DNA of 64,000 nt from an uncultured bacterium (GCA_913055745.1 CAJXJZ010000002.1:57564-121563); one strand, 5' to 3'. Positions 882 to 49,031 are shown, numbered from the stretch's first letter. The notes: generated by a model from the letters alone, not told the origin. Numbers and translations are program-made.

Positions 882-1145
882 ATGTTACTTAAACGAACCA
901 CAGGAAATGTCCTTTTGGTGCTAACAGTGGGTGCCGCATTTGGTACCCTTATTGGAGCAATTGTTAAGGCCATTGTTCCAGAAAGTAATGTCAAAACAGT
1001 ACTTTTTAAGGATATATCTTTTGGATTGAATAGGTTCAATCTTGACCTTGTATTTTTTAAAATGGGTTTATCGTTTCATATTGTATTTAATATCTTTACG
1101 GTGTTTTTTGTGTTTTTAATGATATATCTTCTTATCAAGCACTAA
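882..1145 (+). CDS. Candidate small (87 aa) two-TM membrane protein immediately downstream of tRNA-Leu
   Basis: ATG 882 begins 11 nt after tRNA-Leu; two hydrophobic helices (LLVLTVGAAFGTLIGAIVKAIV; FHIVFNIFTVFFVFLMIYLLI); no Shine-Dalgarno; stop overlaps stop of convergent gene. Confidence 0.2.
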   Translation: MLLKRTTGNVLLVLTVGAAFGTLIGAIVKAIVPESNVKTVLFKDISFGLNRFNLDLVFFKMGLSFHIVFNIFTVFFVFLMIYLLIKH

Positions 1146-2098
1146 TTTTTCCAAAAATGTGATTCCTCTTCTAAAACATTCACATATTCGTAGAATTTTT
1201 CTTTGATATATGTATCGTTTATTGAGCTAAGATAAAGGGCATAAATAGGAAAGATGCGTCTTGCTACCTTATGTTTGTCTTCATATTGGGAAGAGGCTTC
1301 TAAAAGTTCAAACATTATTCTAATCCATTCCCTATCGCCTATAGAGGAGTCCTCCTTACCAGAATATATTGCAGAAAGCATGGCAAAATGGTCTTCATAC
1401 ATGTGTTTTTTCCAGAATGGTGCGTATTTTCTAAAACCAGAAACAAACTCTTTTTTCAAAAATGAGACGCCGGGTATTTTGAGTTTATCCTCTCTGTTTA
1501 ATTGGATCTTTGGACTTTTGAAGGACTCTGTTTGTGCCTCACCCCTATCAAGGACCTTCATCAAAGTGGCAGAGGAGTTGATAAATTCATTCTTAATTGT
1601 CTCATAAAGTGGTTTAGTATCTGAAACTGGTTCTAAATTAATATTTTTAACCTTCAAATTGTTGTAAAGGGCATACGCAAGTATTCCAATATTAAATGCA
1701 GTAAGGCTTTTGGATGCTTCCCAAAGATGTTGCACATCTTCGTTTTTGAAAATATGTGCAGGAATAGATGTTGCATAAGAATGAAAACTTGTAAGATGGG
1801 GTCTTTTCAAAAGATAAAGGATTGAAAATACAAAAAATGTGGAAAAATGGCAGGCAGGGTGGTCAAATGGCTCATGTCCTATCCGAAGGACAGTATCTTG
1901 TTCTGAGATATTTTTAATTATGCTAAGCATCTTGGGATGAAAGTCTGTCAAAATGATTACCCTACCGTTATCCTCCACGTTTATGGTATTAGATGATGGA
2001 TTTAAGAGATCAGAACGCTCAAAAACCTGTATGTTGCCCCCGAATTTATCACGAGCAACCCTCACTAACGCCTTCTTTGTAATTAATATGCCTTCCAT
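1142..2098 (-). CDS. Hypothetical protein, 318 aa, His/Cys-rich motif RIGHEPFDHPACHF
   Basis: Long ORF with ATG at 2096-2098 and GAGAGG-like RBS; no family recognised by eye. Confidence 0.6.
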   Translation of the reverse strand: MEGILITKKALVRVARDKFGGNIQVFERSDLLNPSSNTINVEDNGRVIILTDFHPKMLSIIKNISEQDTVLRIGHEPFDHPACHFSTFFVFSILYLLKRPHLTSFHSYATSIPAHIFKNEDVQHLWEASKSLTAFNIGILAYALYNNLKVKNINLEPVSDTKPLYETIKNEFINSSATLMKVLDRGEAQTESFKSPKIQLNREDKLKIPGVSFLKKEFVSGFRKYAPFWKKHMYEDHFAMLSAIYSGKEDSSIGDREWIRIMFELLEASSQYEDKHKVARRIFPIYALYLSSINDTYIKEKFYEYVNVLEEESHFWKN

Positions 2099-2179
2099 AA
2101 TAATAGCCTCTCTTTACTAAGAAATATTATTTTAAAGTTAGTATTACGAACAGTCAAGGAATGTATTTCTTTTGGGAAT

Positions 2180-3427
2180 CTAAAACCTAATTAAATCAAC
2201 AATGGAATCTAAATCGTCTTTTGCAACAATAGGAACATCTTTTTTAGCGATACGTTTAATGGCTCTTGGGTCCTTAAGCCCATTGCCTGTAAGCAGAATT
2301 ACACAGGTCGCATCATGCGGAATTCTGTTCTCTTTGATGGCCTTCTTAAATCCTGCAAATGCTGCTCCTGCGGCAGGCTCAGTAAATATACCTGTATATT
2401 TCGCAAGTTCACTAATTGCTTCTAATATTTCTTCATCACTTACACCTATGAAAAAGCCATTTGATTCTTTTACAGATTTTAAAGCCTTTACTCCATCCCT
2501 TGGAACTCCAACGTTAATTGAATCTGCAACGGTTTCTGGATTTTCTATGAATTCAATCTCATCTGTATTGTTCTCGTAGGCTCTGAGTAAAGGAGCACTT
2601 TTTTCTCCTTGAACCCCTACCATATGTGGTATCTTTTCTATAAAACCCAGTTCTTTTAGTTCTTTGAAACCTTTATAAACACTCTCTATTATACATCCGT
2701 CGCCAACAGGAACAAAAACATATGAAGGTATGTTGTATTCAAGTTGCTCTGCTATCTCAAAGGCGGCTGTCTTCTTCCCTTCAGAAAGATAGGGGTTTAC
2801 GGCAGTGCTTCTAAGGTAAAGCCCAGTTTTTTCTGCGACTTTAAGGGAAAGGTCAAAAGATGTGTCATAATTACCATCAATCAATATAACCTTTGCATTA
2901 AATAATAATAATTGAAGTAGTTTTCCCTCTGGAATGCTCCTGGGTGCAAGGACATAAACAGGCATACCAATGGAGGCTCCAAATCCTGCCATTGAGGATG
3001 CGGCGTTCCCAGTAGATGCCACTATAATACCATTAGCGTTTGCTTCTTTTGCCTTTATTGCGGCAATGGAACTTGCCCTGTCCTTATAAGATAGTGTCGG
3101 CTCTCTGGTATCATCTTTTAGATAAAGGCCTTTTATATGGTATTTCTTTTCAAAAAACTCACTTTTAATGAGAGGAGTGTATCCCACCCAGAGTGGAGGT
3201 ATTAGTTTGGTATCTTCAAATGGGAGCAACTTAATATACCTATAATGACCAGGTAGTTCGGGAACAATCCAGTTCTTTCTATTAAATTTTTTACCTATTG
3301 CATCGTAATCGTAGAGTACTTCAAGGGTACCCTTATAAGGCCCACACACAGGACATGTGAACAGACCACTGTCCGGTGAATATACCCTTTTGCAACTTGT
3401 GCACCTAAGACCTGTTATTTTACTCAT
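2180..3427 (-). CDS. thrC: Threonine synthase with N-terminal zinc-ribbon domain
   Basis: N-terminal CxxC...CPVC zinc ribbon, PLP-lysine motif SYKDRAS, glycine-rich PLP loop; 415 aa. Confidence 0.9.
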   Translation of the reverse strand: MSKITGLRCTSCKRVYSPDSGLFTCPVCGPYKGTLEVLYDYDAIGKKFNRKNWIVPELPGHYRYIKLLPFEDTKLIPPLWVGYTPLIKSEFFEKKYHIKGLYLKDDTREPTLSYKDRASSIAAIKAKEANANGIIVASTGNAASSMAGFGASIGMPVYVLAPRSIPEGKLLQLLLFNAKVILIDGNYDTSFDLSLKVAEKTGLYLRSTAVNPYLSEGKKTAAFEIAEQLEYNIPSYVFVPVGDGCIIESVYKGFKELKELGFIEKIPHMVGVQGEKSAPLLRAYENNTDEIEFIENPETVADSINVGVPRDGVKALKSVKESNGFFIGVSDEEILEAISELAKYTGIFTEPAAGAAFAGFKKAIKENRIPHDATCVILLTGNGLKDPRAIKRIAKKDVPIVAKDDLDSIVDLIRF

Positions 3428-4331
3428 TTAGAATTTGAGTATAATCTCCTTCTCTGATTGCATCTTTTAAGTCTTTTGTTATGTGTATGGTTTTTATATC
3501 TATTTTCCCTTTCTCTACCTCTTTTAAAGAAAAGCATGTTCTCAAGAAAAATGCTGTGATATTTCTAAAAAGAACGGGGTCTTCTGAAAGCCTTTCAAGT
3601 GACAACATAGAAGAAGTCAAAGATGTTGATATAACAGGAAGGATGACCATGTTCCCTCTTTCTATTATGGATAGAAGTTCTCTTAAATCTAATGTGCTTT
3701 TGAGTTTTGAAACATATACAACATCAGGATTTAGAAAATGGGATGTTTTGATACCTTCTGCAATAGATTCTGTATCCTGGCCTACTTCTACTTGTAGTAT
3801 AAGAGATTGTTCATGACGCAAAACATAGGTTATGGGATCTTCAATAGTGAAAATAGCGAATTTACTAAACCTTGAAAGATAGTATAGAACAGCGGCTATG
3901 AAATCATAAGCAGGCTCTTCTGAAGGTGAGTGTATAAGAATAAAACCTTTTGGGTCATGAAATACGGATAGGATGGCATCTCTATCAAGTGGATTTTGCA
4001 TAATTTCCCGAAGCAGAGGTGGCATATCGTTTACTTTTTTTATGGCTATTAAGTATGAACCTCGTTGAATAGCATAAAACACTTGTAGTCTTCCGACTCC
4101 AGGTATGCCAACTGAGAACTGTCCTCTGTTCCCAAGAGGTTTGTTTACGAGTTTGGAGCGTTGTTTAAGATTGAGCAAAAGATTTCTTACATCGTCAGGC
4201 TTTATTTTACTATGATTAAAAAACTCTATCCCTCTTTTGAGCTTTACTGCAGGACTGGTGCCTGCCGCAAGTATGACTTCTTTTGCACCATATGTATCTA
4301 ATGCCTTTATAATGTCTTGAATACTCAACAT
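3420..4331 (-). CDS. PilT/PilU-like type IV pilus retraction ATPase homolog with degenerate Walker A, Walker B and His box (predicted catalytically inactive)
   Basis: N-terminal domain aligns with PilT (GAKEVILAAGTSPAVKLKRG ~ GASDLHLSAGLPPMIRVDG; IPGVGRLQVFYAIQRGSYLIAIKKV ~ VPGVARFRVNAFNQNRGAGAVFRTI). Asp box TIEDPITYV is conserved. Walker A GPTGSGKST is replaced by HSPSEEPAY, Walker B ILVGEMRD by VYVSKLKS, and His box TLHT by VISTS. 303 aa. GGGGG RBS. Confidence 0.6.
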   Translation of the reverse strand: MLSIQDIIKALDTYGAKEVILAAGTSPAVKLKRGIEFFNHSKIKPDDVRNLLLNLKQRSKLVNKPLGNRGQFSVGIPGVGRLQVFYAIQRGSYLIAIKKVNDMPPLLREIMQNPLDRDAILSVFHDPKGFILIHSPSEEPAYDFIAAVLYYLSRFSKFAIFTIEDPITYVLRHEQSLILQVEVGQDTESIAEGIKTSHFLNPDVVYVSKLKSTLDLRELLSIIERGNMVILPVISTSLTSSMLSLERLSEDPVLFRNITAFFLRTCFSLKEVEKGKIDIKTIHITKDLKDAIREGDYTQILNE

Positions 4332-4335
4332 ATAC

Positions 4336-5073
4336 TTAACCCCCTAAAAAGCCTAAAGCATGCTTATAATCTTCCGGTGTGTCTATTGAAATGCCGGAAT
4401 ATTCTACCAATACAGTCTTTATTTTAAGTCCATTCCAAAGGGCACGCAACTGTTCAAGGGATTCGGTTTTCTCTATCTGAGGCCTAGGTGATTCTACGAA
4501 ACTTCTAAGTGCCATTTTCCTATAGGCGTATATACCCAAATGTATGAAGTAGTTTTCTTTGTTGTATGTATTTTTCTCCTTTGGGGATGGAATTGGGGCA
4601 CGGGAGAAATATAGGGCAAAACCATTTTTATCTATTACTACCTTGGCAGTGTTTTTTGATAGGATTTCTTGAACACTTCTTGCCTTTCTTATGGGGGTTG
4701 CGATATCTGCCTCTTTTGTTTTGTACATGGTACTTATGAGGGTTGACAAAATAGATGGTGTTATAAATGGCTCATCTCCTTGAAGGTTGACTACTATGTC
4801 ATAATCTCTGTTTTTCACCACTTCCCAAACCCTGTCACTACCTGATGGATGGGAGGGGTCTGTCATAACGCTTTTGGCACCATATTTTTGGGCAGTTTCA
4901 GCAATACGCAGGTCATCTGTAGCAATTATCACTTCCCTGAATGCATTGCTTTTTTGGGCAGCCTCATACACCCATATAACGATGGGCTTATCTTTGAGTT
5001 TAAGAAGTGGTTTCCCATGAAGTCTCGTTGATGCGTATCTTGCTGGAATTACACAGATAGCATTGTGTGTCAA
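4336..5073 (-). CDS. kdsB: 3-deoxy-manno-octulosonate cytidylyltransferase (CMP-KDO synthetase)
   Basis: N-terminal AICVIPARYASTRLHGKPLL motif, ~245 aa; TTG start overlapping stop of upstream gene. Confidence 0.85.
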   Translation of the reverse strand: MTHNAICVIPARYASTRLHGKPLLKLKDKPIVIWVYEAAQKSNAFREVIIATDDLRIAETAQKYGAKSVMTDPSHPSGSDRVWEVVKNRDYDIVVNLQGDEPFITPSILSTLISTMYKTKEADIATPIRKARSVQEILSKNTAKVVIDKNGFALYFSRAPIPSPKEKNTYNKENYFIHLGIYAYRKMALRSFVESPRPQIEKTESLEQLRALWNGLKIKTVLVEYSGISIDTPEDYKHALGFLGG

Positions 5074-5537
5074 TATGACTTATGCCTGTTTTTTTTAAAG
5101 AAATAGAATCTTCCGCCTATTCCCCCTTCCATAAAGGCAGTGGTTTCTGGAAACAGCCTTACCCCTGGGGCTACTTCAAGGAAAATGTCGATAGGTGTTC
5201 CCTTAAGTTCATATCTAAGGCCAAGGTCAGCACGAATTCCAAAATAGGAGGATGTATCTATTTCAAAACTCAGTCCTGGTCCTGAATAAAATGTAAATCT
5301 TCCTGGTAATTCTATTTCAAAATCTTCTTGATTGGCTTGTATGTCCCATTGAAAGAGTAAGTCTGCATTGAAATGGAATCTCCCGGGAATAGCCCAGGCG
5401 AGTGCAATCTCGCTGAAGTTAGCCCGCGAGAGAATATATGAAAATGAAAGACCTGTAGGCTGCCCCAATATAAATCCTGTACCAATTGAACCACGTGAAA
5501 GTGAAAAGATTAAGGCAGTTAATAAATTCATATTCAC
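5070..5537 (-). CDS. Small outer-membrane beta-barrel protein (OmpW/OmpA-like barrel), signal peptide
   Basis: Signal peptide MNLLTALIFSLSRGS, alternating amphipathic beta-strands, C-terminal aromatic (…RFYFF); start may be ATG at 5529-5531 instead of GTG at 5535-5537. Confidence 0.5.
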   Translation of the reverse strand: MNMNLLTALIFSLSRGSIGTGFILGQPTGLSFSYILSRANFSEIALAWAIPGRFHFNADLLFQWDIQANQEDFEIELPGRFTFYSGPGLSFEIDTSSYFGIRADLGLRYELKGTPIDIFLEVAPGVRLFPETTAFMEGGIGGRFYFFKKNRHKSY

Positions 5538-5540
5538 AAG

Positions 5541-5615
5541 CGGGGCCGACGAGACTCGAACTCGCGACCTCCGGCGTGACAGGCCGGCGTTCTAACCAGT
5601 CTGAACTACGGCCCC
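5541..5615 (-). tRNA. tRNA-Asp (anticodon GTC)
   Basis: Reverse complement folds: acceptor GGGGCCG/CGGCCCC, D-stem GTTC/GAAC, anticodon stem CCGGC/GCCGG loop CTGTCAC, T-loop TTCGAGT, discriminator G. Confidence 0.9.
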
Positions 5616-5629
5616 GCGTAGTGTTAAAA

Positions 5630-5658
5630 AGTATAATATAAATGATATGAAAAGTCAA
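5630..5658 (-). promoter_or_regulatory. Sigma70-like promoter TTGACT-17-TATACT for tRNA-Asp (and downstream OMP/kdsB operon)
   Basis: On minus strand TTGACT (rc 5653-5658), 17-nt spacer, TATACT (rc 5630-5635), ~14 nt upstream of tRNA 5' end. Confidence 0.4.
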
Positions 5659-6909: not shown

Positions 6910-7776
6910 GTGTTGTCCACTCATATGTGCTTTGATGTTTTTAAAGTGCATCTTTGCTACATAAGGCAATTTATCTTTCCCATATTTTTTTATAAACTCT
7001 AAGATTGCCTTGTTTACATTGGAACCTGCGCCTTTTGGAAATGACATGGAGTATTCTTTTTCCATTTTCTTCAAGTGTTCTATGTAATAAAAACGCGCAA
7101 TAATAGAAGCAAGGGCTGAGGAGAGATACCGCTCCCCTTGAGATTCAATGATAAAATCCATTGTTCTCCCTTTGGAAAACATATAACTTTTTATAAAATC
7201 AGGGTTTGCAAACATATCTATTATAACAAGATGTGCCTCTTTTTTATTTAAAATGTTCTCAATTACCCTTGCATGTGCCCATGCGAGAATTCTATTTACA
7301 TTTTTCATCTTTGCATATAGTTCATTGTATTTTTTTGGTTTTATAAGAACCACATCGTATAAAAAACTTTTTTTAATGTATTCTATTTGCTCTTCTATTA
7401 CATCATCACCTAATCTCTTACTGTCTTTTATTCCCATTTCAATGAGTTTTGGGACATCATCTTTATCAACATACGCACCTGCCACAACAAGTGGTCCAAA
7501 CACATCGCCTTTGCCAGATTCATCTGTACCTATCTGTGGAAATCTGAGTCCTTCTTTGAATGCTTGTACGAGCATATTGGAGAGGGGAGCACAGAGTGGT
7601 ATGGGATAAACCAGGGTGCCTGTAGATGGGTAGAAAATGTATTTTTCTCCTTCTATTTCAAATACTTCCTGATTTTGTGACTTCTTATATGTATCTGCAA
7701 TATTGTACAAAAGGGTGCGCACTTTGGTACGCACCCTATGTGGGAGGATTATGGACCTTATCTTTCTACTTTTCAA
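6901..7776 (-). CDS. rnhC: Ribonuclease HIII (RNase HII-family catalytic domain with N-terminal TBP-like extension)
   Basis: IGTDESGKGDVFGPLVVAGAYV active-site motif, ~90 aa N-terminal extension, 291 aa; TTG start (uncertain). Confidence 0.75.
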   Translation of the reverse strand: MKSRKIRSIILPHRVRTKVRTLLYNIADTYKKSQNQEVFEIEGEKYIFYPSTGTLVYPIPLCAPLSNMLVQAFKEGLRFPQIGTDESGKGDVFGPLVVAGAYVDKDDVPKLIEMGIKDSKRLGDDVIEEQIEYIKKSFLYDVVLIKPKKYNELYAKMKNVNRILAWAHARVIENILNKKEAHLVIIDMFANPDFIKSYMFSKGRTMDFIIESQGERYLSSALASIIARFYYIEHLKKMEKEYSMSFPKGAGSNVNKAILEFIKKYGKDKLPYVAKMHFKNIKAHMSGQHSL

Positions 7777-9958
7777 TTAAAAGTTTTAATGTCCTTTTAC
7801 CAATTTTTATTATATATCTTCCAGGTGTTAATTGATTAAAAGTTAACCTATTTTCGCCTTTATGGAGTGTGACATTTCTTTGCAATGCCAGTCTGCCAGT
7901 TATGTCAAAAACCTTTATGTCTGTGTTTTTTGTTTTTGAAGATGTGAGGATAAGAGTATTTATATAATTTGTTTGTTGCTTTAGGTTTGTGTGTTCTCTT
8001 ATACCTTCGGGTGAATGAAACTCAGGTATCTTTTTAAATGTAATGTCATCAACATATATCCCATCAAAGTTGACAGACTGGTCTGTTTCCATATAAAAGC
8101 GATATTTTAGCAACTTGCCCCTGTATTTTGTAAGGTCTATTGTTACCTTATGCCAATCTGCTGTATCATTGAATGTTTTGAGTGTCTGCCATGTTGTATC
8201 ACCTATGGTCTTTACTTGAAAATATGCATAATCATACCCCTTCTCAAGGCTGTATTTAGTGTAAAAAGAAATATAGTACATTGCTGTTGTATCTTGAAGA
8301 TAGAGTGTGTCTTTAAATTCAAGATATGATGTGTCGTTGTCATTATAGTTTCCACCCTTTGAGTCTGTGATGGAATGATATTGAGAATGGTAATCTTCAC
8401 TTGTTGTATCCCAGTGATTTGTCATAAAGTCAGAAAATCCGTTTTCAAAATCACATTGAAAAATAGGATTTATATTGCCTATAATGAGTTTTACCTCTTT
8501 TGTAGCATTGTAGTAAGGTGAAGAGACATTAAAATACATGGCTATCCATCCAGGTTCAAATGTATCAGGAAGCGTGAAGGTAAAGGAGAAAAAGGTATCG
8601 TTTTTATTGGGTAGTATGCCAAGATTGGATATGTTAAAACTTGATGGAGTTGCATCAGTTATGCCATACCTCATAAGGCTATCTGTAATAATGGACACAT
8701 TGCCACCTGTAAATTGGGAAGTTGCAGAGAGGTTTTCAATACGCACGCTGTGGGTTACACTATTTAGTGAGTCTGCGTCGTTGTTTTCAATTGCCAACCA
8801 CATACCGGCCATTTTTGCAAGAAGCATATTAAGAGGAATATTCTCGTTTATTTGTTCTAAGATAATGGATGTATCGGGTTGCCAAAAATCCTCTCCTACT
8901 TCTGCTGTATAGGCTAAAATCTTTGGGTGGGATGAATCACTGTACCACCAATCCATTGTGACACCGTTGGCATTGTATAGTAGTTCACCAGGCCTCCCTA
9001 TGGCATAACCATTAGATGCTGTAAGTCTTCTTGCAAATGCCCTCAATGTGGCATCATCTTCTGCCTCTATGTTGTCATAACCCCATGGAAACATCAAAAG
9101 GTTTGAATATGTGTGATAGTCTATAGCAACCTTTGGTTGAATGCTGTCTGTGAAATCCCTTATAGATTCTGACTCCGGTTCTGAGAATGGTGCTGGTCCT
9201 CTATAGGTGGCGGAAGAGGGATCAGGAGATGAACCTGTATCATCGTATCCCCATTGATAACTAAAGTTTCTATTTAAATCCACACCATCATCCGACTCTT
9301 CAAATATCCCATCATTATCGTTATCTCTTTTGTTCTTTCTCCAGTATCCGTCTGATGATTCGTTATACACATATCCGTCTGGATTTACAACAGGTATAAA
9401 ATAAAGTCTTCTGGAGTTTAGTACTTCAGTAACATCTGGGTCTTTACCATAGTTTCTTACAAGATACCACAAAAATCCGAACAAAGTGGATACTCCACCT
9501 GGTTCCCTTGCGTGAATACAAGCCTCGTACAAAACCGCAGGCCTTGCATCTTCATTTCCATCAAAATGAGTTGCCTCAATTGCCCATATATTTCTTCCTT
9601 CATAGGTTGTTCCAATGGAAAACTTTTGGCCTATAATATTTGGATAGAGATTGTGTAGTTTATCAAGTTCTGACACAGCCTCCTCGTATGTATAATATGG
9701 CCCAAAGTCTTTTTTAAACGGTGATTTATCCCACCATGCTTTTGTATCCTTTATTACATAAGTAAACTTCATTTTTAGTTTATCCGGATTTCTGGTATAT
9801 ATAAGAGCCTCATTACTTTTTTTATCGTAATGAATAATATCGTACCCAGACTTAAGCAGCCCTAAAAGTTCTTCTTGAGAACTTAGTTTTACTTTTACAA
9901 GGCTGTTTGCAAATAGCGTAATAGGTAAGAGAATGAATAATATGGTTTTATATTTCAT
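7766..9958 (-). CDS. Secreted zinc carboxypeptidase (peptidase M14) with C-terminal beta-sandwich domains and T9SS-type C-terminal sorting domain
   Basis: Signal peptide MKYKTILFILLPITLFANS; M14 motifs YEACIHAREPGG (HxxE), IDYHTYSNLLMFPWGY (His196 region), YTAEVGE (catalytic Glu); C-terminal ~80 aa matches T9SS CTD pattern (KVFDITGRLALQ…GRYIIKIG). ATG at 9956-9958 with AAGGAG RBS preferred over upstream GTG. Confidence 0.8.
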   Translation of the reverse strand: MKYKTILFILLPITLFANSLVKVKLSSQEELLGLLKSGYDIIHYDKKSNEALIYTRNPDKLKMKFTYVIKDTKAWWDKSPFKKDFGPYYTYEEAVSELDKLHNLYPNIIGQKFSIGTTYEGRNIWAIEATHFDGNEDARPAVLYEACIHAREPGGVSTLFGFLWYLVRNYGKDPDVTEVLNSRRLYFIPVVNPDGYVYNESSDGYWRKNKRDNDNDGIFEESDDGVDLNRNFSYQWGYDDTGSSPDPSSATYRGPAPFSEPESESIRDFTDSIQPKVAIDYHTYSNLLMFPWGYDNIEAEDDATLRAFARRLTASNGYAIGRPGELLYNANGVTMDWWYSDSSHPKILAYTAEVGEDFWQPDTSIILEQINENIPLNMLLAKMAGMWLAIENNDADSLNSVTHSVRIENLSATSQFTGGNVSIITDSLMRYGITDATPSSFNISNLGILPNKNDTFFSFTFTLPDTFEPGWIAMYFNVSSPYYNATKEVKLIIGNINPIFQCDFENGFSDFMTNHWDTTSEDYHSQYHSITDSKGGNYNDNDTSYLEFKDTLYLQDTTAMYYISFYTKYSLEKGYDYAYFQVKTIGDTTWQTLKTFNDTADWHKVTIDLTKYRGKLLKYRFYMETDQSVNFDGIYVDDITFKKIPEFHSPEGIREHTNLKQQTNYINTLILTSSKTKNTDIKVFDITGRLALQRNVTLHKGENRLTFNQLTPGRYIIKIGKRTLKLLIEK

Positions 9959-9963
9959 TGTTC

Positions 9964-11100
9964 TCACTCCTTTACAATACTTTTCCCTTCTATATAGACT
10001 TGGGTAGCCTCAGTCTTTATGTCAAAAGGATGTCCTGACCAAATAACAAAATCAGCGTCTTTTCCTCTCTCAAGACTTCCAACGCTTTTATCTATGCCGA
10101 GTAGTATGGCAGGATTGATGGTTATGGATTTTAATGCATCCAATTCATCCATCCCCTCTTTATGTGCAAGTGCTGCATATAGATTAAGGTATTTTATAGG
10201 CGTAAATGGATGGTCACTTGTTATTGCCACAGTTAGGCCATTTTTGCTTAAAATACCAGGGTTTTTAAAGGAGTTATGTTTAAGTTCAACCTTCCATGGG
10301 AAGTACATGTGTGGACCTGATATGCAACCTATAAGGTTTTTCACACCCTTTATTTCCTCTGTGGCAAGATGCCCTTCTGTGCAGTGGTCAATGATTATTG
10401 AAAGATCAAATTCCTCTGCTATTCTCAATGCGGTTAGAATATCGTCTTTTCTATGTGCGTGTGCCCTTACAGGTATTTCTTTTTTTAAGGCAAGGCATAG
10501 AGTTTCATACTCAGTGTTTTTCTCTTTCCCTCTTCTTTTATTACAGTATGTCTTCGCCTTATAAAATGCTTCCCTTATAATAGCCGCTATTGCCATCCTT
10601 GTAATAGGTTTTTTGCCTTTTGCCCCATAAGTACTCTTAGGATTCTCTCCAAAGGACAATTTAAGCCCTGCCACTTCTTTTAGTACCATATCTTTTAAGT
10701 ATCCTTCTTTTAATTTTACAACTGCCCCAATGCCTGCAATGGGATTAGAACTTCCTGGTGTAATGTAGACTGTTGTTATACCAGAGGACCTTGCCTCTTT
10801 AATTGCGGCATCCATAGGATAAAAACCATCTATGGCTCTTATGTCTGGTGTGCTTGGATTTGTGCTCTCATTCAGGTCTGCATAATCCTTACCTGCGCCT
10901 TCTTCTACCATTCCAAGATGGGTATGGGCATCCACAAGCCCTGGCGTAATAAATCTATCTTTTACATTGATAACTTCTACATTCTTGGGTATCCTTCTTC
11001 TCCTCAATACCTTTTTTATCTTGCCTTCATCTATTATCAATGTACCATTATAAAGCCATTCTTTCCCTGTAAAAATCTTTGCGCCAACAAATGCCTTCAT
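9964..11100 (-). CDS. Amidohydrolase-superfamily protein, paralog A (COG1228-like, imidazolonepropionase/dipeptidase-related); intact metal ligands
   Basis: HxH motif GLVDAHTHLGM, later RAHAHR, DHCTEGH, ITSDHPF; 378 aa; GGAGGG RBS. Confidence 0.8.
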   Translation of the reverse strand: MKAFVGAKIFTGKEWLYNGTLIIDEGKIKKVLRRRRIPKNVEVINVKDRFITPGLVDAHTHLGMVEEGAGKDYADLNESTNPSTPDIRAIDGFYPMDAAIKEARSSGITTVYITPGSSNPIAGIGAVVKLKEGYLKDMVLKEVAGLKLSFGENPKSTYGAKGKKPITRMAIAAIIREAFYKAKTYCNKRRGKEKNTEYETLCLALKKEIPVRAHAHRKDDILTALRIAEEFDLSIIIDHCTEGHLATEEIKGVKNLIGCISGPHMYFPWKVELKHNSFKNPGILSKNGLTVAITSDHPFTPIKYLNLYAALAHKEGMDELDALKSITINPAILLGIDKSVGSLERGKDADFVIWSGHPFDIKTEATQVYIEGKSIVKE

Positions 11101-18700: not shown

Positions 18701-19600
18701 ATGAGCATTTTTAAAGACATTGAAGTCAGTGAGAAGTTCTTTTTGAGAAATCTTGAAGTATATCCGTTGAGATATACCAAAGGGAATGGGAGTATTTATG
18801 TGTCCCTTGATGAAGCATTAAGGGATGGTACAGCCAAGGTAAAGGATGTCTATGGGGTAAATGCTATTGGTGTATTAAACATAAATGACAGGCCCCTTTT
18901 AATGCTTGAGGGAGAGAGTCTACAAGGTGCCAGGCAGGATAGGATTGTGAATGTCACAAGTATCTTAGAACCTGAGGTTGAAACAGTTTTACCGGTGAGT
19001 TGTGTTGAACAAAACAGGTGGCAAGGGGCAAGTGATTTTTCCACTTCTTTGACTCTTGCTTTTCCTTCCCTAAGAAGCATTTTACGTAGTTCTGTATATA
19101 ATAGTCTCAAAGCGAGCAAAAAAATGGAATCTGACCAGAGTGCTATTTGGGAGGAGGTAAAGAAGACCTTAACCGTTACACATACGAGAAGCGAAACACT
19201 ATCCATGCATGATGCTTACGCCTCTTTAAAAGAAGATATACAAAGGTATGTAAGTGAGCGTGGAAACCTCAGGAATATGCATGGCTATATGGTTTTTATT
19301 GAAGAAGGACTTGTATCACTTGATGTATTTGCATCCTCTGAACTTTTAAAAAAGTACGAGAGGAAACTCTTTGAAAGTTATGCCATGCAAGGGATGCTCT
19401 ATATCTATGGGCAAAAGGACCTGAAAAAAGTCAAATTAGACCCTAAGGACTTGGATATGCTTGATTCCGTTGACTTTGAAGATTTTCAGTTGATGGAAAC
19501 GGTATATGAAAAAAGGTATAGGGGCGATTTTCTGATAAATGTAACCTTTAATAAAAATAATGAGTTTGTTTATGCTTCCGTAGTTCCATCGCATAGTTAA
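18701..19600 (+). CDS. Hypothetical protein, 299 aa
   Basis: ATG with AGAGGAG RBS; no family recognised by eye. Confidence 0.55.
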   Translation: MSIFKDIEVSEKFFLRNLEVYPLRYTKGNGSIYVSLDEALRDGTAKVKDVYGVNAIGVLNINDRPLLMLEGESLQGARQDRIVNVTSILEPEVETVLPVSCVEQNRWQGASDFSTSLTLAFPSLRSILRSSVYNSLKASKKMESDQSAIWEEVKKTLTVTHTRSETLSMHDAYASLKEDIQRYVSERGNLRNMHGYMVFIEEGLVSLDVFASSELLKKYERKLFESYAMQGMLYIYGQKDLKKVKLDPKDLDMLDSVDFEDFQLMETVYEKRYRGDFLINVTFNKNNEFVYASVVPSHS

Positions 19601-19637
19601 TTTTTGCATACGTTTATATTCAAAAAGGAGTGAAAAC

Positions 19638-20627
19638 ATGTTAAATATACCAACACATCTAAAGGGTAGAGACTATATAAGAACGCAGGACTGGTCAAAA
19701 GAAGATCTTTTGACTGTTATAAATGTCGCAGAGGAGTTGAAATATGCATTTAAGCACAACGAACCTACGCCTATCTTAAACAACAAGACCATATTTTTGA
19801 TGTTCTTTGACAAATCCACAAGAACAAGGAACGCATTTGAGGCTGGAATGACACAACTTGGTGGTCATGCACATTATATTGATGTATCCACTTCACAGAT
19901 TTCCCATGGTGAGAGTGCAAAGGATACGGGTATAATTCTTTCAAGATACGGTCATGGCATTGCCATAAGGCATGACCTTGTGCCCTATGAGGGCGAAAAT
20001 TATATGAGGGATATGGCTTTCTGGGCAGACAAACCCATAATAAATCTTCAGTCAGATATAGACCATCCTACCCAAACAATAGCAGACCTTATGACCATAA
20101 TGGAAAGGTTTGGTTCAAATTTAAGAGGACTCAAAGTGGCAGTTTCCTGGGCATATACCAGAAGTTATGCAAAACCTCTTTCAGTACCCCAGGGCCTTAT
20201 CATGCTTCTTACGCGCTTTGGAATGGATGTGGTGCTGGCACGTCCACCTGAGTATAAATTAATGCCAGAGATAGTTGAAATAGGAAAGAAAAATGCAGAA
20301 AGAGAGGGAGTTCGGTTTGAGATAGTAGATGATATGGAGTATGCATTTGAGAGTGCTGATATTGTTTATCCCAAGAGTTGGGGTGCACTCCATTTGTTTA
20401 ATAATCCAGAAGAGTCTTTAAAACTTGCTAAAAAGTACAAGGACTGGATTGTAGATAGCAAAAAGATGGAGATTACAAAGCCTCATTCTATTTATATGCA
20501 TTGCCTCCCCGCGGCTCGTGGTGAGGAGGTTACTGACGATGTTATAGATGGTCCGCATTCTGTAGTGTTTGATGAAGCAGAGAATCGTTTGCACACAGCC
20601 AAGGCACTTATGAGCCTGTTAATGTGA
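19638..20627 (+). CDS. Transcarbamylase of the ornithine carbamoyltransferase family, atypical substrate motif (SWG instead of SMG); specificity unknown
   Basis: Carbamoyl-phosphate motifs STRTR, HPTQ and OTC-type HCLP present; ornithine-binding DxxxSMG replaced by YPKSWGAL; 329 aa; AAGGAG RBS. Confidence 0.75.
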   Translation: MLNIPTHLKGRDYIRTQDWSKEDLLTVINVAEELKYAFKHNEPTPILNNKTIFLMFFDKSTRTRNAFEAGMTQLGGHAHYIDVSTSQISHGESAKDTGIILSRYGHGIAIRHDLVPYEGENYMRDMAFWADKPIINLQSDIDHPTQTIADLMTIMERFGSNLRGLKVAVSWAYTRSYAKPLSVPQGLIMLLTRFGMDVVLARPPEYKLMPEIVEIGKKNAEREGVRFEIVDDMEYAFESADIVYPKSWGALHLFNNPEESLKLAKKYKDWIVDSKKMEITKPHSIYMHCLPAARGEEVTDDVIDGPHSVVFDEAENRLHTAKALMSLLM

Positions 20628-35092: not shown

Positions 35093-35593
35093 CTATCTCT
35101 CCCAGATCACTCTAAGAAATTTTTGATCCTCAGAAAATTTTATTTCAAGTTCCCCTTTATGTGCTCTCTTTATGGCCTTTCCTAATCTTGATGCAAGGCC
35201 TTCTGTGGTAGTTTTGATGACGATGAAACCATTTTTATCATCTTCTATGGACATTATTCTTGAGAGTGGATTACTTCGTTCTTCTTTCTCGGCTTCATGG
35301 CGAATAAGGTTTAAGATCTCATTTTTGTGAGATGCGTCTTTTAGATAATCTCCTTTAAGATGAATTACACCCAGGGGATAATTGTCTTTTATTTTTCTAC
35401 ATGCTGGGCAATCTTTGTAATCAACACTCCCTTCTTTTTCAATCTGTTTTTTTAGATTATCGTCTTTTTTCCATGTTTTTTCATGATAAACAAGACCACA
35501 TGTAGGACATATTGTAGGGTCTTTATATTGAGTTTTATCAATATACGGGTCCTCTATTTTGAAATTAAGTCTTTTATCTCGCCTGTCTTTCAT
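35093..35593 (-). CDS. Zinc-ribbon hypothetical protein (CPTCG…CPAC), 166 aa
   Basis: Two CxxC pairs 30 aa apart; basic/acidic lysine-rich; no family recognised. Confidence 0.45.
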   Translation of the reverse strand: MKDRRDKRLNFKIEDPYIDKTQYKDPTICPTCGLVYHEKTWKKDDNLKKQIEKEGSVDYKDCPACRKIKDNYPLGVIHLKGDYLKDASHKNEILNLIRHEAEKEERSNPLSRIMSIEDDKNGFIVIKTTTEGLASRLGKAIKRAHKGELEIKFSEDQKFLRVIWER

Positions 35594-44650: not shown

Positions 44651-44675
44651 AACCGCCTTTTAAGGCGGGTTTTTT
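44651..44675. terminator. Bidirectional rho-independent terminator between convergent genes
   Basis: aaaaaaCCGCCTTttAAGGCGGgtttttta: 7-bp GC-rich stem, flanked by A-run and T-run; T-run overlaps stop codon of minus-strand gene. Confidence 0.6.
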
Positions 44676-47520: not shown

Positions 47521-49031
47521 TTATGCCTCCTTTTCCTTAGTGTATAAAAATTATTATACACCAAAAATACAAGGACAATCAAGAAAGAGATAAATACTAT
47601 AACATCCCCAATATCTGTATAGATAGTATTTCTCTTTACAAGAGGTACATCGCATGTGATAAGCCCTTTTGTGAAAAGAGGAAGTTTTTTTAGGACCTTA
47701 CCCTCAGGGGAGATTATACATGATACACCAGTCTTTGCAGAACGTACCACATACCTTCCTGTTTCAACGGCTAAAAGACGAGACATTTGAAAATGTTCTA
47801 AAGGGCCATTTGATTTACCAAACCAACCATCGTTTGTTATAACAAAGAGTATTTTTGCACCCATTTTTGCGAGTTTTCTTGCAATTTCTGGGAATATGGA
47901 CTCAAAGCAAATGAGTATGCCCATTTTATGATTATTAAAATCTACGGTTTTTATCCTACCAGGCCAAAAATCACCCCATCCTAAGTTTATTTTATTAAGT
48001 GGAGAGGGCAATTTATCTTGATATGGCAGCCATTCACCAAAGGGCACAAGATGATGTTTGTCGTATAGGTCAACAACATGACCGTGGCTAAAGAGCATGG
48101 CAGTGTTAAAAATCCTATATGTTCCATTCTGATTCCTCTTGTCCTGTGTGCCAAATAATATGCTTGCACCTGTAATATGCTCAATCTCTTCTATCAATTT
48201 CTGTGCTCTAAATGAATAGCGGAAATAGCCAGGGATTGCAGATTCAGAGAGCACAATAAGTTGAACAGAGTAAGGTTTTATCTTTTTTGAAAGGTATATG
48301 AGGGAGTCTCTTGTTTGTAACCACTCCTTAGGGTCATAGATATTCTTGGGAAGTATGTTGGGTTGAAGTATCCCTATTCTTATGTGTTCTTTTGATTGCT
48401 CTTTCAATCTTTTAAGATTCATTTTAAGAATATTTCCGGTGAGTATTACTATAAAGAGCAGGATAGCAGTGCTCCATATATGTTTTTTATTAGGTCTTTC
48501 CCATACGATATAAAACAGATATCCAGTTAGCACTATAATAAAGGATATGAAATAGGGACCTAAGAAGGATGCAAGAGACAATATGGTAGTGCTTTCTAAT
48601 TGAGAATAGTACAGGTTCATCCAGGGAAAGCCCAATGGGCCTTGTGATTTAATATATTCAAGGATAACCCAGAGAGAGGGAATAAAAATGAACCCCCATT
48701 CTTTGTCAAGGTATTTTTTTACTCCTATGAGGAAGATGGCAGGATACAAAGAGAGATATAGGGGAAGAAGTAAAAGGCCCATGATAAGATATTTTTCAAC
48801 GCCTGGTTCTGTTTGGAGATGCAGAATCCAGAATGTGTGAAAGGCATAGAAGGGATAGAAAAGCAAGAGTCCTTTTAGAAAGATCTTTGTATCACAGTGT
48901 TTTAAAAACAGAAAGAGTATAAAAAATGAGATAGGTGCAAACAGGTAAATATTAAAGGGATAAAAAGAAGAAAGGTATAAAATCACAAAAAGGACAGCCA
49001 AAAATAGGCTGCCCTTTTTAATCTTTGGCAT
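47517..49031 (-). CDS. lnt: Apolipoprotein N-acyltransferase
   Basis: N-terminal multi-TM domain + CN-hydrolase domain with E-K-C triad (…LSESAIPGY…; CFESIFPE); 504 aa. Confidence 0.85.
   Translation of the reverse strand: MPKIKKGSLFLAVLFVILYLSSFYPFNIYLFAPISFFILFLFLKHCDTKIFLKGLLLFYPFYAFHTFWILHLQTEPGVEKYLIMGLLLLPLYLSLYPAIFLIGVKKYLDKEWGFIFIPSLWVILEYIKSQGPLGFPWMNLYYSQLESTTILSLASFLGPYFISFIIVLTGYLFYIVWERPNKKHIWSTAILLFIVILTGNILKMNLKRLKEQSKEHIRIGILQPNILPKNIYDPKEWLQTRDSLIYLSKKIKPYSVQLIVLSESAIPGYFRYSFRAQKLIEEIEHITGASILFGTQDKRNQNGTYRIFNTAMLFSHGHVVDLYDKHHLVPFGEWLPYQDKLPSPLNKINLGWGDFWPGRIKTVDFNNHKMGILICFESIFPEIARKLAKMGAKILFVITNDGWFGKSNGPLEHFQMSRLLAVETGRYVVRSAKTGVSCIISPEGKVLKKLPLFTKGLITCDVPLVKRNTIYTDIGDVIVFISFLIVLVFLVYNNFYTLRKRRHN

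What the first reader, a model, noticed from the sequence alone, without database searches (positions are those of the whole stretch)
3420..4331. PilT-like retraction-ATPase homolog lacking Walker A/Walker B/His-box
The 303-aa protein is colinear with PilT/PilU. The N-terminal domain is conserved, including a PGVGRLQVFYAIQRG block like PilT VPGVARFRVNAFNQNRG, and the Asp box TIEDPITYV is retained. The nucleotide-binding P-loop GPTGSGKST is replaced by HSPSEEPAY, Walker B ILVGEMRD by VYVSKLKS, and the His box TLHT by VISTS. The protein cannot bind or hydrolyse ATP in the canonical way. It is co-oriented and overlapping with thrC (8-nt overlap) and kdsB, not with pilus genes. A catalytically dead PilT paralog could act as a regulator or adaptor of a type IV pilus/T2SS-like motor, or may have been repurposed.
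Basis: seen in the sequence. Interest (0 to 1): 0.6.

Follow-up and report, generated by a model that had tools for sequence, protein, structure and literature searches.

The report
Conserved catalytically dead PilT-like protein
A gene in an uncultured WOR-3 bacterium encodes a well-conserved copy of the pilus-retraction motor PilT that has lost every residue needed to burn ATP; it belongs to a widespread, undescribed family of such "dead motors" whose job is unknown.

Summary
Window 3420..4331 (minus strand) encodes a 303-aa protein homologous to PilT over both domains (Aquifex PilT E=7.5e-30; AlphaFold pLDDT 95, TM 0.83-0.88 to PilT/PilU structures). It has no P-loop anywhere.

It is not decaying. 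Orthologues in candidate division WOR-3 are all 303-304 aa and 61-87% identical, as conserved as the neighbouring kdsB and thrC, with saturated synonymous sites (pN 0.09-0.24).

It belongs to a large uncurated family of 275-314-aa Walker-less PilT-like proteins. The family occurs in WOR-3/Hydrothermae, Aquificota, Lentisphaerae and Kiritimatiellia, and databases mislabel members as PilT or TadA. The family separates from active PilT in a tree (bootstrap 76/100).

None of the loci examined places it in a pilus operon. In the WOR-3 clade it always follows kdsB, even at 32-37% identity. The thrC link is younger.

Most likely it is a nucleotide-independent structural or regulatory subunit that uses retained PilT surfaces. 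Its partner, whether pilus machinery or envelope biogenesis, is unresolved. I rate it a new variant of a known kind, of moderate interest.

The parts
3420..4331 (-). ORF X: 303-aa Walker-less PilT-like protein (pseudo-ATPase)
   Evidence: ORF list. PDB phmmer hit to Aquifex PilT, E=7.5e-30. AF2 model pLDDT 95.2, pTM 0.90. Foldseek top hits are PilT/PilU, TMq 0.83-0.88.
4020..4331 (-). N-terminal PilT N2D-like domain (about res 1-104)
   Evidence: Colinear alignment to PilT residues 2-101. Model secondary structure.
4035..4103 (-). Conserved block PGVGRLQVFYAIQRGSYLIAIKK (res 77-99). R81, Q89, R90 and G91 are kept. The arginine-finger positions are Q83 and K98.
   Evidence: Mapping onto P. aeruginosa PilT R80/R82/R97. 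PilT-Gm Arg-83 lies next to the nucleotide site (PMC6858323). Arginine fingers are conserved across the whole family (PMC5424180).
3903..3932 (-). Destroyed Walker A: HSPSEEPAYD (res 134-143) in place of TGPTGSGKST
   Evidence: G133->E, G135->P, K136->A, S137->Y, T138->D (P. aeruginosa numbering).
3822..3848 (-). Asp-box remnant TIEDPITYV (res 162-170). E164 and D165 are kept. The third acidic residue is T168.
   Evidence: E164 is present in 78 of 78 Walker-less sequences and 27 of 27 active PilT. Pa E163 -> T168.
3696..3725 (-). Destroyed Walker B and catalytic Glu: DVVYVSKLKS (res 203-212). G->S208, E->K209, R->K211, D->S212.
3627..3662 (-). Destroyed His box ERGNMVILPVIS (res 224-235). H->N227 and H->I234. 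E224 and G226 are kept (Pa E219 interface/pore-loop Glu).
   Evidence: The role of E219/E220 at packing-unit interfaces is from PMC6858323. Pore-loop-1 Glu is from PMC5424180.
3441..3470 (-). Remnant of the AIRNLIRE helix (LKDAIREGDY, res 288-297). The protein ends 6 residues later and lacks about 45 C-terminal residues of PilT.
   Evidence: Alignments. R293-E294 align with Pa R294-E295.
4340..4345 (-). Shine-Dalgarno-like AGGGGG, 8 nt upstream of the ATG, inside the last codons of kdsB
   Evidence: Read directly from the sequence.
4336..5073 (-). kdsB (CMP-Kdo synthetase), immediately upstream. This is the conserved partner gene.
   Evidence: TIGR00466 201.7 bits against cut-off 155.2. kdsB-X adjacency seen.
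2180..3427 (-). thrC (threonine synthase), overlapping the 3' end of X by 8 nt
   Evidence: TIGR00260 212.3 bits against cut-off 167.1. Adjacency only in the 44%-or-more identity group. Absent in L020 and L022-24.
5070..5537 (-). orf155, a small OMP-like protein and first gene of the putative operon
   Evidence: Conserved in 5 WOR-3 loci at 70-84% identity. Only a weak DUF3996 hit.
1142..2098 (-). orf318, a conserved protein of unknown function downstream, probably with its own promoter
   Evidence: 40-46% identity in 4 loci. No Pfam, NCBIfam or PADLOC hit. Promoter-like site at 2157..2129.
5630..5658 (-). Sigma-70-like promoter match upstream of tRNA-Asp and orf155 (weak evidence)
   Evidence: 10 of 12 matches. 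No minus-strand terminator-like site between 5537 and 2180.

Best explanation
X is a functional, non-catalytic descendant of the PilT/PilU retraction ATPases, that is, a pseudo-ATPase.

Shown:
- It keeps the complete two-domain PilT fold.
- It has lost the whole catalytic apparatus: P-loop, both arginine fingers, the third Asp-box acid, Walker B Gly, catalytic Glu and both His-box His.
- It has also lost the last ~45 residues.
- It is under purifying selection as strong as that on neighbouring housekeeping genes.
- It belongs to an old, multi-phylum family of 275-314-aa Walker-less PilT-like proteins.
- In the WOR-3/Hydrothermae clade it sits directly downstream of kdsB, with abutting or overlapping reading frames.

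Inferred mechanism:
- It cannot bind or hydrolyse ATP. It therefore acts through protein-protein contacts, as a nucleotide-independent PilT-fold oligomer or subunit.
- Several residues remain conserved: the first Asp-box Glu E164, R81, Q89/R90, Q180, E182, D186, the interface/pore-loop Glu E224, and R293-E294 of the AIRNLIRE helix. These suggest that the inter-domain cleft and some packing-unit and pore surfaces of PilT are preserved.
- The most economical role is a static, non-motor ring or subunit. It would dock on a PilT partner, either the PilC/GspF-type platform or an active PilT/PilB, and modulate or cap it.
- In WOR-3 it would be expressed constitutively with envelope-biogenesis genes.

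Confidence that it is a selected pseudo-ATPase of this family is about 0.9. Confidence that its partner is a type IV pilus or T2SS machine is about 0.35.
For: Homology and fold:
- Aquifex PilT E=7.5e-30, colinear alignment.
- TIGR01420 is the best NCBIfam hit.
- AF2 pLDDT 95.2, pTM 0.90.
- Foldseek gives TMq 0.83-0.88 to PilT, PilT2 and PilU over about 310 columns.

Motif loss:
- No P-loop in X or its orthologues.
- Residue-by-residue map against P. aeruginosa PilT. The recalled PilT sequence was validated on 13 published residue numbers.

Selection:
- Ten full-length orthologues of 303-304 aa with the same replacements.
- pS 0.74-0.83 (saturated) against pN 0.09-0.24. The only unsaturated pair gives dN/dS 0.13.
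- X is 64-75% identical between genomes in which kdsB is 61-69% and thrC 65-73%.

Family:
- 74 Walker-less proteins of 240-330 aa among the top 150 representatives.
- 113 of 114 further short homologues lack Walker A.
- Taxa named by the sources: WOR-3, Hydrothermae, Aquificota (Thermocrinis albus, Hydrogenivirga), Lentisphaerae, Kiritimatiellia.
- No curated model fits these proteins.
- The Walker-less versus active split has NJ bootstrap 76/100.

Context:
- kdsB-X adjacency at 100-32% identity.
- Good SD and ATG.

Plausibility of a pilus link:
- The only cultured WOR-3 strain is piliated (PMC12285271).
- PilT binds PilC, and interface residues such as R294 matter for that binding (PMC6858323).
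- A Walker-A-less PilT1 exists inside the Bdellovibrio pil operon (PMC4237445).
Against: - No member examined lies next to pilB, pilT, pilC, pilM-Q or prepilin genes. This holds for the window and WOR-3 loci and for Aquificota loci. Only the PVC loci have pseudopilin genes 3-7 kb away, and these may be incidental.
- I could not check whether the WOR-3 genomes that carry X encode an active PilT, PilB or PilC.
- Oligomeric state, partner binding and absence of nucleotide binding are all untested.
- Contexts differ among clades: kdsB in WOR-3, RR-GGDEF in PVC, solitary and convergent with lysA in Aquificota. A single shared partner is therefore not evident.
- Monophyly rests on a simple NJ tree with 76% support, and fast-evolving sequences may attract each other.
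- The alignment after the His box is ambiguous, so the fate of the closed-interface Arg (Pa R239) is unclear. One alignment places it on S244 and another on R247.
Confidence: 0.55

Rival explanations
1. X has been repurposed for envelope or LPS biogenesis and has nothing to do with pili. A PilT-fold scaffold is co-expressed and possibly complexed with KdsB, for example to organise CMP-Kdo supply at the inner membrane.
For: - kdsB-X adjacency, with abutting or overlapping ORFs, is the only context feature kept across the whole 300-aa clade. X identity falls to 32-37% and kdsB to 44-47%, while both flanks change.
- Other envelope genes lie nearby: kdsD-like SIS+CBS, LptC, Wzz, Wzy_C and GT9 in L020; GT9 and MlaD in L014; a small OMP-like orf155 heads the operon in the window.
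Against: - The ~280-aa sister clade shows no kdsB link.
- Adjacency within one phylum-level lineage can be inherited synteny.
- thrC in the same operon shows that unrelated housekeeping genes are co-transcribed here.
- No precedent exists for a PilT-fold protein in Kdo or LPS pathways.
Confidence: 0.2
2. X is a small-molecule sensor. The former nucleotide cleft binds a different ligand, such as c-di-GMP or another phosphorylated metabolite, and relays it to partners.
For: - In three independent PVC loci the family member is immediately followed by a REC-GGDEF-REC protein. A PAS histidine kinase and an LRR protein lie just upstream.
- Cleft residues R81, Q89, R90, E164, Q180, E182 and D186 are invariant or nearly so family-wide even though catalysis is lost.
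Against: - No signalling genes lie next to X in WOR-3 or Aquificota.
- No known c-di-GMP-binding motif was identified.
- The loop replacing the P-loop is not conserved across the family.
- The conserved cleft residues may simply hold the two domains together.
Confidence: 0.12
3. X is still an NTPase that uses a non-canonical, migrated set of catalytic residues.
For: - Some annotated pseudoenzymes later prove active (general point made in PMC10211241, listed).
- E164 and D165 of the Asp box persist, and K98 replaces an Arg finger.
Against: - Every phosphate-binding and catalytic element is gone at once: P-loop Gly/Lys/Ser/Thr, catalytic Glu, both His, both Arg fingers.
- The replacing loop is acidic (SEEPAYD), which is unfavourable for binding phosphates.
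Confidence: 0.04
4. X is a decaying pseudogene or an ORF-calling artefact.
For: It scores below the Pfam and NCBIfam cut-offs.
Against: - Intact 303-304-aa ORFs occur in at least 10 genomes or metagenomes.
- Synonymous sites are saturated and non-synonymous divergence is low.
- Conservation equals that of kdsB and thrC.
- The structure prediction is confident.
- A strong SD precedes the ATG.
Confidence: 0.01

Closest known systems
PilT/PilU type IVa pilus retraction ATPases (NCBIfam TIGR01420; structures 2EWV/2GSZ Aquifex PilT, 3JVV P. aeruginosa PilT, 5FL3 Thermus PilT2, 9N32 PilU)
   Same: - Same two-domain fold and colinear sequence.
- No PilB/GspE-type N1 domain or zinc motif.
- Retains R81, Q89, the first Asp-box Glu, the Q-x-E-x-G-x-D block, the interface/pore-loop Glu E224, and the IRE of AIRNLIRE.
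   Different: - No Walker A, arginine fingers, catalytic Glu or His box.
- The third Asp-box acid is lost.
- About 45 C-terminal residues are missing.
- It scores 93.6 bits against the 319.1 cut-off.
- It is not associated with pilus genes.
Bdellovibrio bacteriovorus PilT1 (Bd1510), a PilT paralogue reported to lack Walker A (PMC4237445)
   Same: A PilT paralogue without a nucleotide-binding P-loop, proposed to regulate or stabilise the pilus rather than power retraction.
   Different: - PilT1 is reported to keep a Walker B box and sits in a pilB-pilT1-pilC-pilS-pilR operon.
- X has lost Walker B as well and lies between kdsB and thrC.
Uncurated family of 275-314-aa Walker-less PilT-like proteins. 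Examples are Thermocrinis albus 'PilT-like protein' P0253 and Hydrogenivirga 'twitching motility protein' P0188/P0202. Others are Lentisphaerae 'TadA' P0163 and Hydrothermae MCD6132273.1 / UniRef100_A0A7V5HNB7.
   Same: - X is a member: same architecture and same wholesale motif loss.
- Shared family-specific residues: G70, F72, G75, G80, Y86, H173, G193.
- One bipartition in the tree.
   Different: - X belongs to the longer (300-314 aa) basal clade, which keeps the AIRE remnant and E224 and is linked to kdsB.
- The ~280-aa clade ends earlier, mostly keeps Arg finger 1 (R in 56 of 63) and has other contexts.
ArlH/FlaH of the archaellum, a KaiC/RecA-like partner that binds the PilT-superfamily motor FlaI but is a poor ATPase or none (comparison from my own knowledge, not tested here)
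   Same: Conceptual analogue: a degenerate RecA-fold ring protein that modulates a type IV filament motor by binding it.
   Different: It belongs to a different family (KaiC-like, retains Walker A) and is encoded inside the archaellum operon.
Full-length (338-421 aa) PilT-like proteins with Walker A Lys->Arg (GxxxSGRST) and a degenerate Walker B, seen among the hits (P0050, P0083, P0102, P0110, P0112, P0122, P0135, P0151)
   Same: PilT-clade proteins that are predicted to be catalytically impaired.
   Different: They keep a recognisable P-loop, the Asp box and full length. This is a separate and probably independent route to inactivity.

Membership tests
PilT/PilU retraction ATPase (TIGR01420 / Pfam PF00437 T2SSE) | Two-domain fold: N2D (PAS-like) plus RecA-like CTD | tested here: met
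   AF2 pLDDT 95.2. Foldseek TMq 0.83-0.88 to PilT and PilU chains.
PilT/PilU retraction ATPase (TIGR01420 / Pfam PF00437 T2SSE) | Walker A GxxGxGK[ST] | tested here: not met
   The aligned segment is SPSEEPAYD. No such motif occurs anywhere in the protein.
PilT/PilU retraction ATPase (TIGR01420 / Pfam PF00437 T2SSE) | Atypical Walker B followed by the catalytic Glu (hhhhGE) | tested here: not met
   VVYVSK: G203->S208 and E204->K209.
PilT/PilU retraction ATPase (TIGR01420 / Pfam PF00437 T2SSE) | Asp box (T-I-E-D-P-I-E) | tested here: inconclusive
   TIEDPIT: E164 and D165 are kept and the third acidic residue is T168. The motif is partly retained.
PilT/PilU retraction ATPase (TIGR01420 / Pfam PF00437 T2SSE) | His box with two conserved histidines | tested here: not met
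   H222->N227 and H229->I234.
PilT/PilU retraction ATPase (TIGR01420 / Pfam PF00437 T2SSE) | Two N2D arginine fingers (Pa R82 and R97; PilB-Gm R271 and R286) | tested here: not met
   Q83 and K98 in 11 of 11 WOR-3-group sequences. Definition from PMC5424180 and PMC6858323.
PilT/PilU retraction ATPase (TIGR01420 / Pfam PF00437 T2SSE) | AIRNLIRE helix and C-terminal helical region | tested here: not met
   Only DAIREG remains, and the protein ends 9 residues after R293-E294. About 45 residues are missing.
PilT/PilU retraction ATPase (TIGR01420 / Pfam PF00437 T2SSE) | Score above the curated family cut-offs | tested here: not met
   TIGR01420 93.6 against 319.1. PF00437 13.3 against 24.9.
PilT/PilU retraction ATPase (TIGR01420 / Pfam PF00437 T2SSE) | Homohexamer that binds the PilC platform and powers retraction | not testable with these tools
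   No multimer modelling, model coordinates or experiments were available.
Walker-less PilT-like family (uncurated, defined here) | PilT-clade homology, length 275-314 aa, no P-loop, catalytic Glu or His box | tested here: met
Walker-less PilT-like family (uncurated, defined here) | Family-wide invariant or near-invariant residues: R81, Q89, R90, G91, E164, H173, Q180, E182, D186. Family-specific residues: G70, F72, G75, G80, Y86. | tested here: met
   All are present in X.
Walker-less PilT-like family (uncurated, defined here) | Groups with the other Walker-less proteins rather than with active PilT in a phylogeny | tested here: met
   NJ tree, bipartition present, bootstrap 76/100. Support is moderate and the method is simple.
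Bdellovibrio PilT1-type (Bd1510) | Lacks Walker A but keeps Walker B; encoded in a pilB-pilT1-pilC operon | tested here: not met
   X lacks Walker B and has no pil neighbours. The description of PilT1 is from PMC4237445.

The most novel reading that the evidence does not exclude
The Walker-less PilT-like proteins are an ancient, nucleotide-free ring family that left the pilus machinery altogether. In WOR-3/Hydrothermae the ring would work with KdsB in outer-membrane (Kdo/LPS) biogenesis. In PVC bacteria it would work with a diguanylate-cyclase signalling module. That would be a new cellular role for the secretion-ATPase fold.
Probability: 0.2. Interest if true: 0.8.

Novelty: new variant of a known kind. 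Interest (0 to 1): 0.55.

Why it matters
PilT-superfamily ATPases are textbook rotary motors, and every conserved motif is thought to be essential. A large family that is conserved at housekeeping level yet has discarded all of these motifs, while keeping the fold, shows that the scaffold has a second, energy-independent use.

If the protein docks on the PilC/GspF platform or on active motors, it would be a new class of built-in regulator of pilus or secretion dynamics. It would operate in deep-branching thermophiles (Aquificota, WOR-3) and in PVC bacteria. If it works with KdsB or c-di-GMP modules instead, the role is new for this fold.

Practically, hundreds of database entries named "twitching motility protein PilT" or "TadA ATPase" are mis-annotated. 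These entries inflate inferences of twitching motility from metagenome-assembled genomes.

Cultured hosts exist: Thermocrinis albus, Hydrogenivirga, and possibly the WOR-3 isolate sy37. The question is therefore experimentally tractable.

Tried and rejected
- **Arginine fingers.** I first read the invariant R81 and R90 as the two arginine fingers. I then mapped X onto P. aeruginosa PilT, using a sequence checked against 13 residue numbers published in PMC6858323, and used the 15-residue spacing of PilB-Gm R271/R286 and PilT-Gm Arg-83. The fingers turned out to be Pa R82 and R97, which are Q83 and K98 in X. The claim that the fingers are retained was dropped.
- **Phosphate-mimic loop.** I considered that the acidic SPSEE loop mimics phosphate and locks a closed state. 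The loop is acidic only in the 60%-or-more identity WOR-3 group, not in P0013-P0018 or the 280-aa clade. It is therefore not a family mechanism, and it could not be checked without model coordinates.
- **Closed-like model.** TM-scores are higher to the all-closed 6OJX and to AMP-PNP/AMP-PCP chains (0.86-0.88) than to some chains of OCOCOC hexamers (0.76-0.79). This is suggestive only, because I could not assign open or closed states to individual chains.
- **Pa R239 (closed interface).** Two alignments disagree (S244 or R247), so it was not used.
- **Failed or empty look-ups.** The exact-sequence look-up of the window protein found nothing. The alignment A3 was too diverse for locus search. 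PADLOC gave no hit.
- **Literature.** Searches for a described Walker-less PilT family found only Bdellovibrio PilT1.
- **Tandem modelling.** I considered modelling a linker-joined tandem to probe oligomerisation.
- **Aspartate-family link.** thrC in WOR-3 and lysA in Aquificota both belong to the aspartate family. I judged this coincidental. lysA is convergent, and thrC is absent from the deeper kdsB-X loci.
Full report
**1. The observation**

The ORF at window 3420..4331 lies on the minus strand, starts with ATG and encodes 303 aa. An AGGGGG Shine-Dalgarno sits 8 nt upstream of the start, inside the last codons of kdsB (sequence).

phmmer against PDB sequences gives Aquifex aeolicus PilT (2gsz/2ewv) at E=7.5e-30, followed by Thermus PilT2, P. 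aeruginosa PilT and PilU. The alignment is colinear over residues 2-233. It puts TGPTGSGKST on HSPSEEPAYD and VGEMRD on VSKLKS. TIGR01420 (PilT/PilU) is the best NCBIfam model but scores 93.6 bits against a cut-off of 319.1. Pfam T2SSE scores 13.3 against 24.9. A regular-expression scan finds no [GA]xxxxGK[ST] anywhere in the protein.

The 8-nt overlap with thrC is real. With kdsB there is a 4-nt spacer in this window, while orthologous loci overlap by 4-8 nt. thrC and kdsB pass their NCBIfam equivalog cut-offs.

**2. How dead is it?**

I aligned X, its relatives and 27 active PilTs with P. aeruginosa PilT. The result is a residue map.

Lost in X (P. aeruginosa numbering first):
- Walker A: G130->S135, G133->E138, G135->P140, K136->A141, S137->Y142, T138->D143.
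- The third Asp-box acid: E163->T168.
- R176->V181 and R194->F199.
- Walker B: G203->S208.
- Catalytic Glu: E204->K209.
- R206->K211, D207->S212 and T220->R225.
- His box: H222->N227 and H229->I234.
- Both arginine fingers: R82->Q83 and R97->K98, in 11 of 11 sequences of the WOR-3 group.

The fingers are defined by PilB-Gm R271 and R286, which lie 15 residues apart (PMC5424180), and by PilT-Gm Arg-83 next to the nucleotide site (PMC6858323).

About 45 C-terminal residues of PilT are absent. The protein ends just after a DAIREG remnant of the AIRNLIRE helix.

Kept in X:
- R81 (Pa R80), Q89, R90/G91.
- The first Asp-box Glu E164 and D165.
- Q180, E182, G184, D186.
- E224 and G226. Pa E219 is a packing-unit interface residue. 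Its Aquifex equivalent, E222, is the conserved pore-loop-1 Glu.
- R293-E294. Pa R294 is an open-interface residue whose mutation lowers PilC binding.

**3. Fold**

AlphaFold2, run with a 68-sequence family alignment, gives mean pLDDT 95.2 and pTM 0.90, with no disordered segment. Foldseek against the PDB returns only PilT, PilT2, PilU and PilT4 at the top, with TMq 0.83-0.88 over about 310 columns. DotB, PilF, GspE and PilB follow. The whole two-domain PilT architecture is therefore retained.

**4. Not a pseudogene**

The 5.8-billion-protein search found ten full-length orthologues at 61-87% identity. All are 303-304 aa and carry the same replacement motifs. Record titles identify the lineage as candidate division WOR-3.

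In codon comparisons of six genes, synonymous sites are saturated (pS 0.74-0.83) while pN is 0.09-0.24. The only unsaturated pair gives dN/dS of 0.13. Between the same genome pairs X is 64-75% identical, kdsB 61-69% and thrC 65-73%. X is therefore constrained like a housekeeping enzyme.

**5. It belongs to a large, undescribed family**

An exhaustive HMMER search of 1.84 billion representatives gave 4813 hits. Among the best 150, 74 are proteins of 240-330 aa without a Walker A. A profile search returned 1311 proteins at E<=1e-15. The top 120 are almost all 274-297-aa proteins, and 113 of 114 short ones lack Walker A.

Source names place these proteins in several groups:
- Aquificota: Thermocrinis albus DSM 14484, Hydrogenivirga, Aquificaceae.
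- Lentisphaerae and Kiritimatiellia.
- Candidatus Hydrothermae and WOR-3.

They are annotated variously as "twitching motility protein PilT", "TadA" or "hypothetical". No Pfam or NCBIfam model fits them. They sit far below the TIGR01420 cut-off, and only some barely pass PF00437.

Family-wide invariants are G80, R81, Q89, R90, E164 and Q180. Near-invariants are G70, F72, G91, H173, E182 and D186. Several of these residues (G70, G75, Y86, H173, G193) are characteristic of the Walker-less proteins and not of active PilT.

In an NJ tree of 83 sequences the Walker-less proteins form one bipartition against active PilTs, with bootstrap 76/100. The 300-314-aa proteins (X, P0013-P0016, P0018) form a clade sister to the ~280-aa proteins. 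A single old loss of catalysis is thus the favoured reading. Support is only moderate and the method is simple.

**6. Genomic context**

The window region reads tRNA-Asp, orf155 (a small OMP-like protein), kdsB, X, thrC, then orf318 of unknown function after 82 nt. A promoter-like site lies upstream of tRNA-Asp and orf155. No terminator-like site lies on that strand through thrC.

| Group | Identity to X | Context |
|---|---|---|
| Five WOR-3 genomes | 64-75% | Five-gene block orf155-kdsB-X-thrC-orf318 conserved |
| P0013 | 44% | kdsB-X-thrC persists, flanks differ |
| Hydrothermae P0014, and P0016 | 32-37% | Only kdsB-X persists (4-nt overlap, or a small ORF between); thrC replaced by a convergent CCA-adding enzyme; kdsD-like, LptC, Wzz, Wzy and GT9 genes nearby in L020 |
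| Aquificota | 22-30% | Solitary gene; 3' end overlaps a convergent lysA by 14-38 nt; upstream gene varies |
| Three PVC loci | 22-30% | Followed at once by a REC-GGDEF-REC protein; LRR protein and PAS histidine kinase upstream; pseudopilin genes 3-7 kb away |

No other PilT-, PilB- or GspE-like gene, prepilin signal or pilus or T2SS Pfam family occurs in the 64-kb window or in the WOR-3 loci held.

**7. Interpretation**

Shown: X is a selected, structurally intact, catalytically void PilT derivative that belongs to an old multi-phylum family.

Inferred: without any phosphate-binding or catalytic residue it must act by binding partners. Residues around the inter-domain cleft and some interface and pore residues are conserved. 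This suggests it still forms PilT-like assemblies or docks on PilT partners.

The most economical model is a static, nucleotide-independent ring or subunit that modulates a type IV filament machine. Three observations fit this model. A Walker-A-less PilT1 exists in the Bdellovibrio pil operon (PMC4237445). The first cultured WOR-3 strain carries pili (PMC12285271). Aquificota are known to have T4P with an active PilT (2EWV).

No context evidence ties X to pili, however. The deep kdsB linkage favours an envelope-biogenesis role in WOR-3, and the PVC context favours a c-di-GMP-linked signalling role. These remain live rivals. I could not determine whether the genomes carrying X encode active PilT, PilB or PilC, nor test oligomerisation or ligand binding.

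**8. Novelty**

Literature searches found no description of this family. The nearest precedent is the brief note on Bdellovibrio PilT1. I rate the finding a new variant of a known kind: a PilT-superfamily pseudo-ATPase that has lost the entire catalytic apparatus, is truncated, is widespread and lies outside pilus loci. Interest is moderate (0.55). The family is real, conserved and mis-annotated, and cultured hosts make it testable. Its function is still inferred.

Noticed in passing
L005 10001-12879; L007 10001-12875; L009 10001-12890 (PVC metagenome/MAG loci): In Lentisphaerae/Kiritimatiellia-type loci the Walker-less PilT-like gene is always followed by a ~670-aa REC-GGDEF-REC protein. Upstream lie a weakly OMP-like 241-aa protein, an LRR protein (283-319 aa) and a PAS histidine kinase. 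BirA and prepilin-type genes are nearby. This may be a conserved signalling module.
   Followed up: partly
L016 10001-11975; L017 6001-8014; L018 6001-8011; L019 6001-8011 (Aquificota): In Aquificota the family member is a solitary gene. Its 3' end overlaps the 3' end of a convergent lysA (diaminopimelate decarboxylase) by 14-38 nt in all four loci, while the upstream gene varies (accA, cysS, DUF3417 and others).
   Followed up: partly
Proteins P0050, P0083, P0102, P0110, P0112, P0122, P0135, P0151 (hits): This is a separate class of full-length (338-421 aa) PilT-like proteins. The Walker A lysine is arginine (GxxxSGRST) and Walker B is degenerate, while the Asp box is intact. It looks like a different and probably independent route to an inactive PilT.
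   Followed up: partly
Proteins P0023, P0031, P0034, P0038, P0039, P0052, P0082 (hits): These are tandem PilT-PilT fusion proteins of 716-741 aa. Each carries two complete modules, both with Walker A motifs.
   Followed up: no
window 1142-2098 (-): orf318 is a 318-aa protein conserved downstream of thrC in four WOR-3 loci (40-46% identity). It has no Pfam, NCBIfam or PADLOC match and has its own promoter-like site.
   Followed up: partly
window 5070-5615 (-): tRNA-Asp (5540-5615) ends 3 nt before the start of orf155. orf155 is a small, conserved (70-84% identity) beta-barrel-like protein with only a weak DUF3996 hit. It overlaps kdsB by 4 nt.
   Followed up: partly
window 35093-35593 (-): A 166-aa bacterial ORF matches the Pfam NMD3 family above its cut-off (32.9 against 24.9 bits). 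NMD3 is normally a eukaryotic and archaeal ribosome-export adaptor. The match probably covers the zinc-ribbon part only.
   Followed up: no
window 18701-20627 (+): An ARPP-1 domain protein (PF20208, 207 bits) sits directly upstream of an ornithine/aspartate carbamoyltransferase-like gene and a NUDIX hydrolase.
   Followed up: no
window 7766-9967 (-): A 733-aa M14 zinc carboxypeptidase carries a MAM-like domain and a T9SS-type C-terminal sorting domain (Por_Secre_tail, just below the cut-off). This hints at type IX secretion in this WOR-3 genome.
   Followed up: no
window 44674-47520 (-): A 948-aa secreted protein carries DUF5689 and an OB-fold nucleic-acid-binding domain. The apolipoprotein N-acyltransferase gene (Lnt, 47517-49031) lies next to it.
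   Followed up: no
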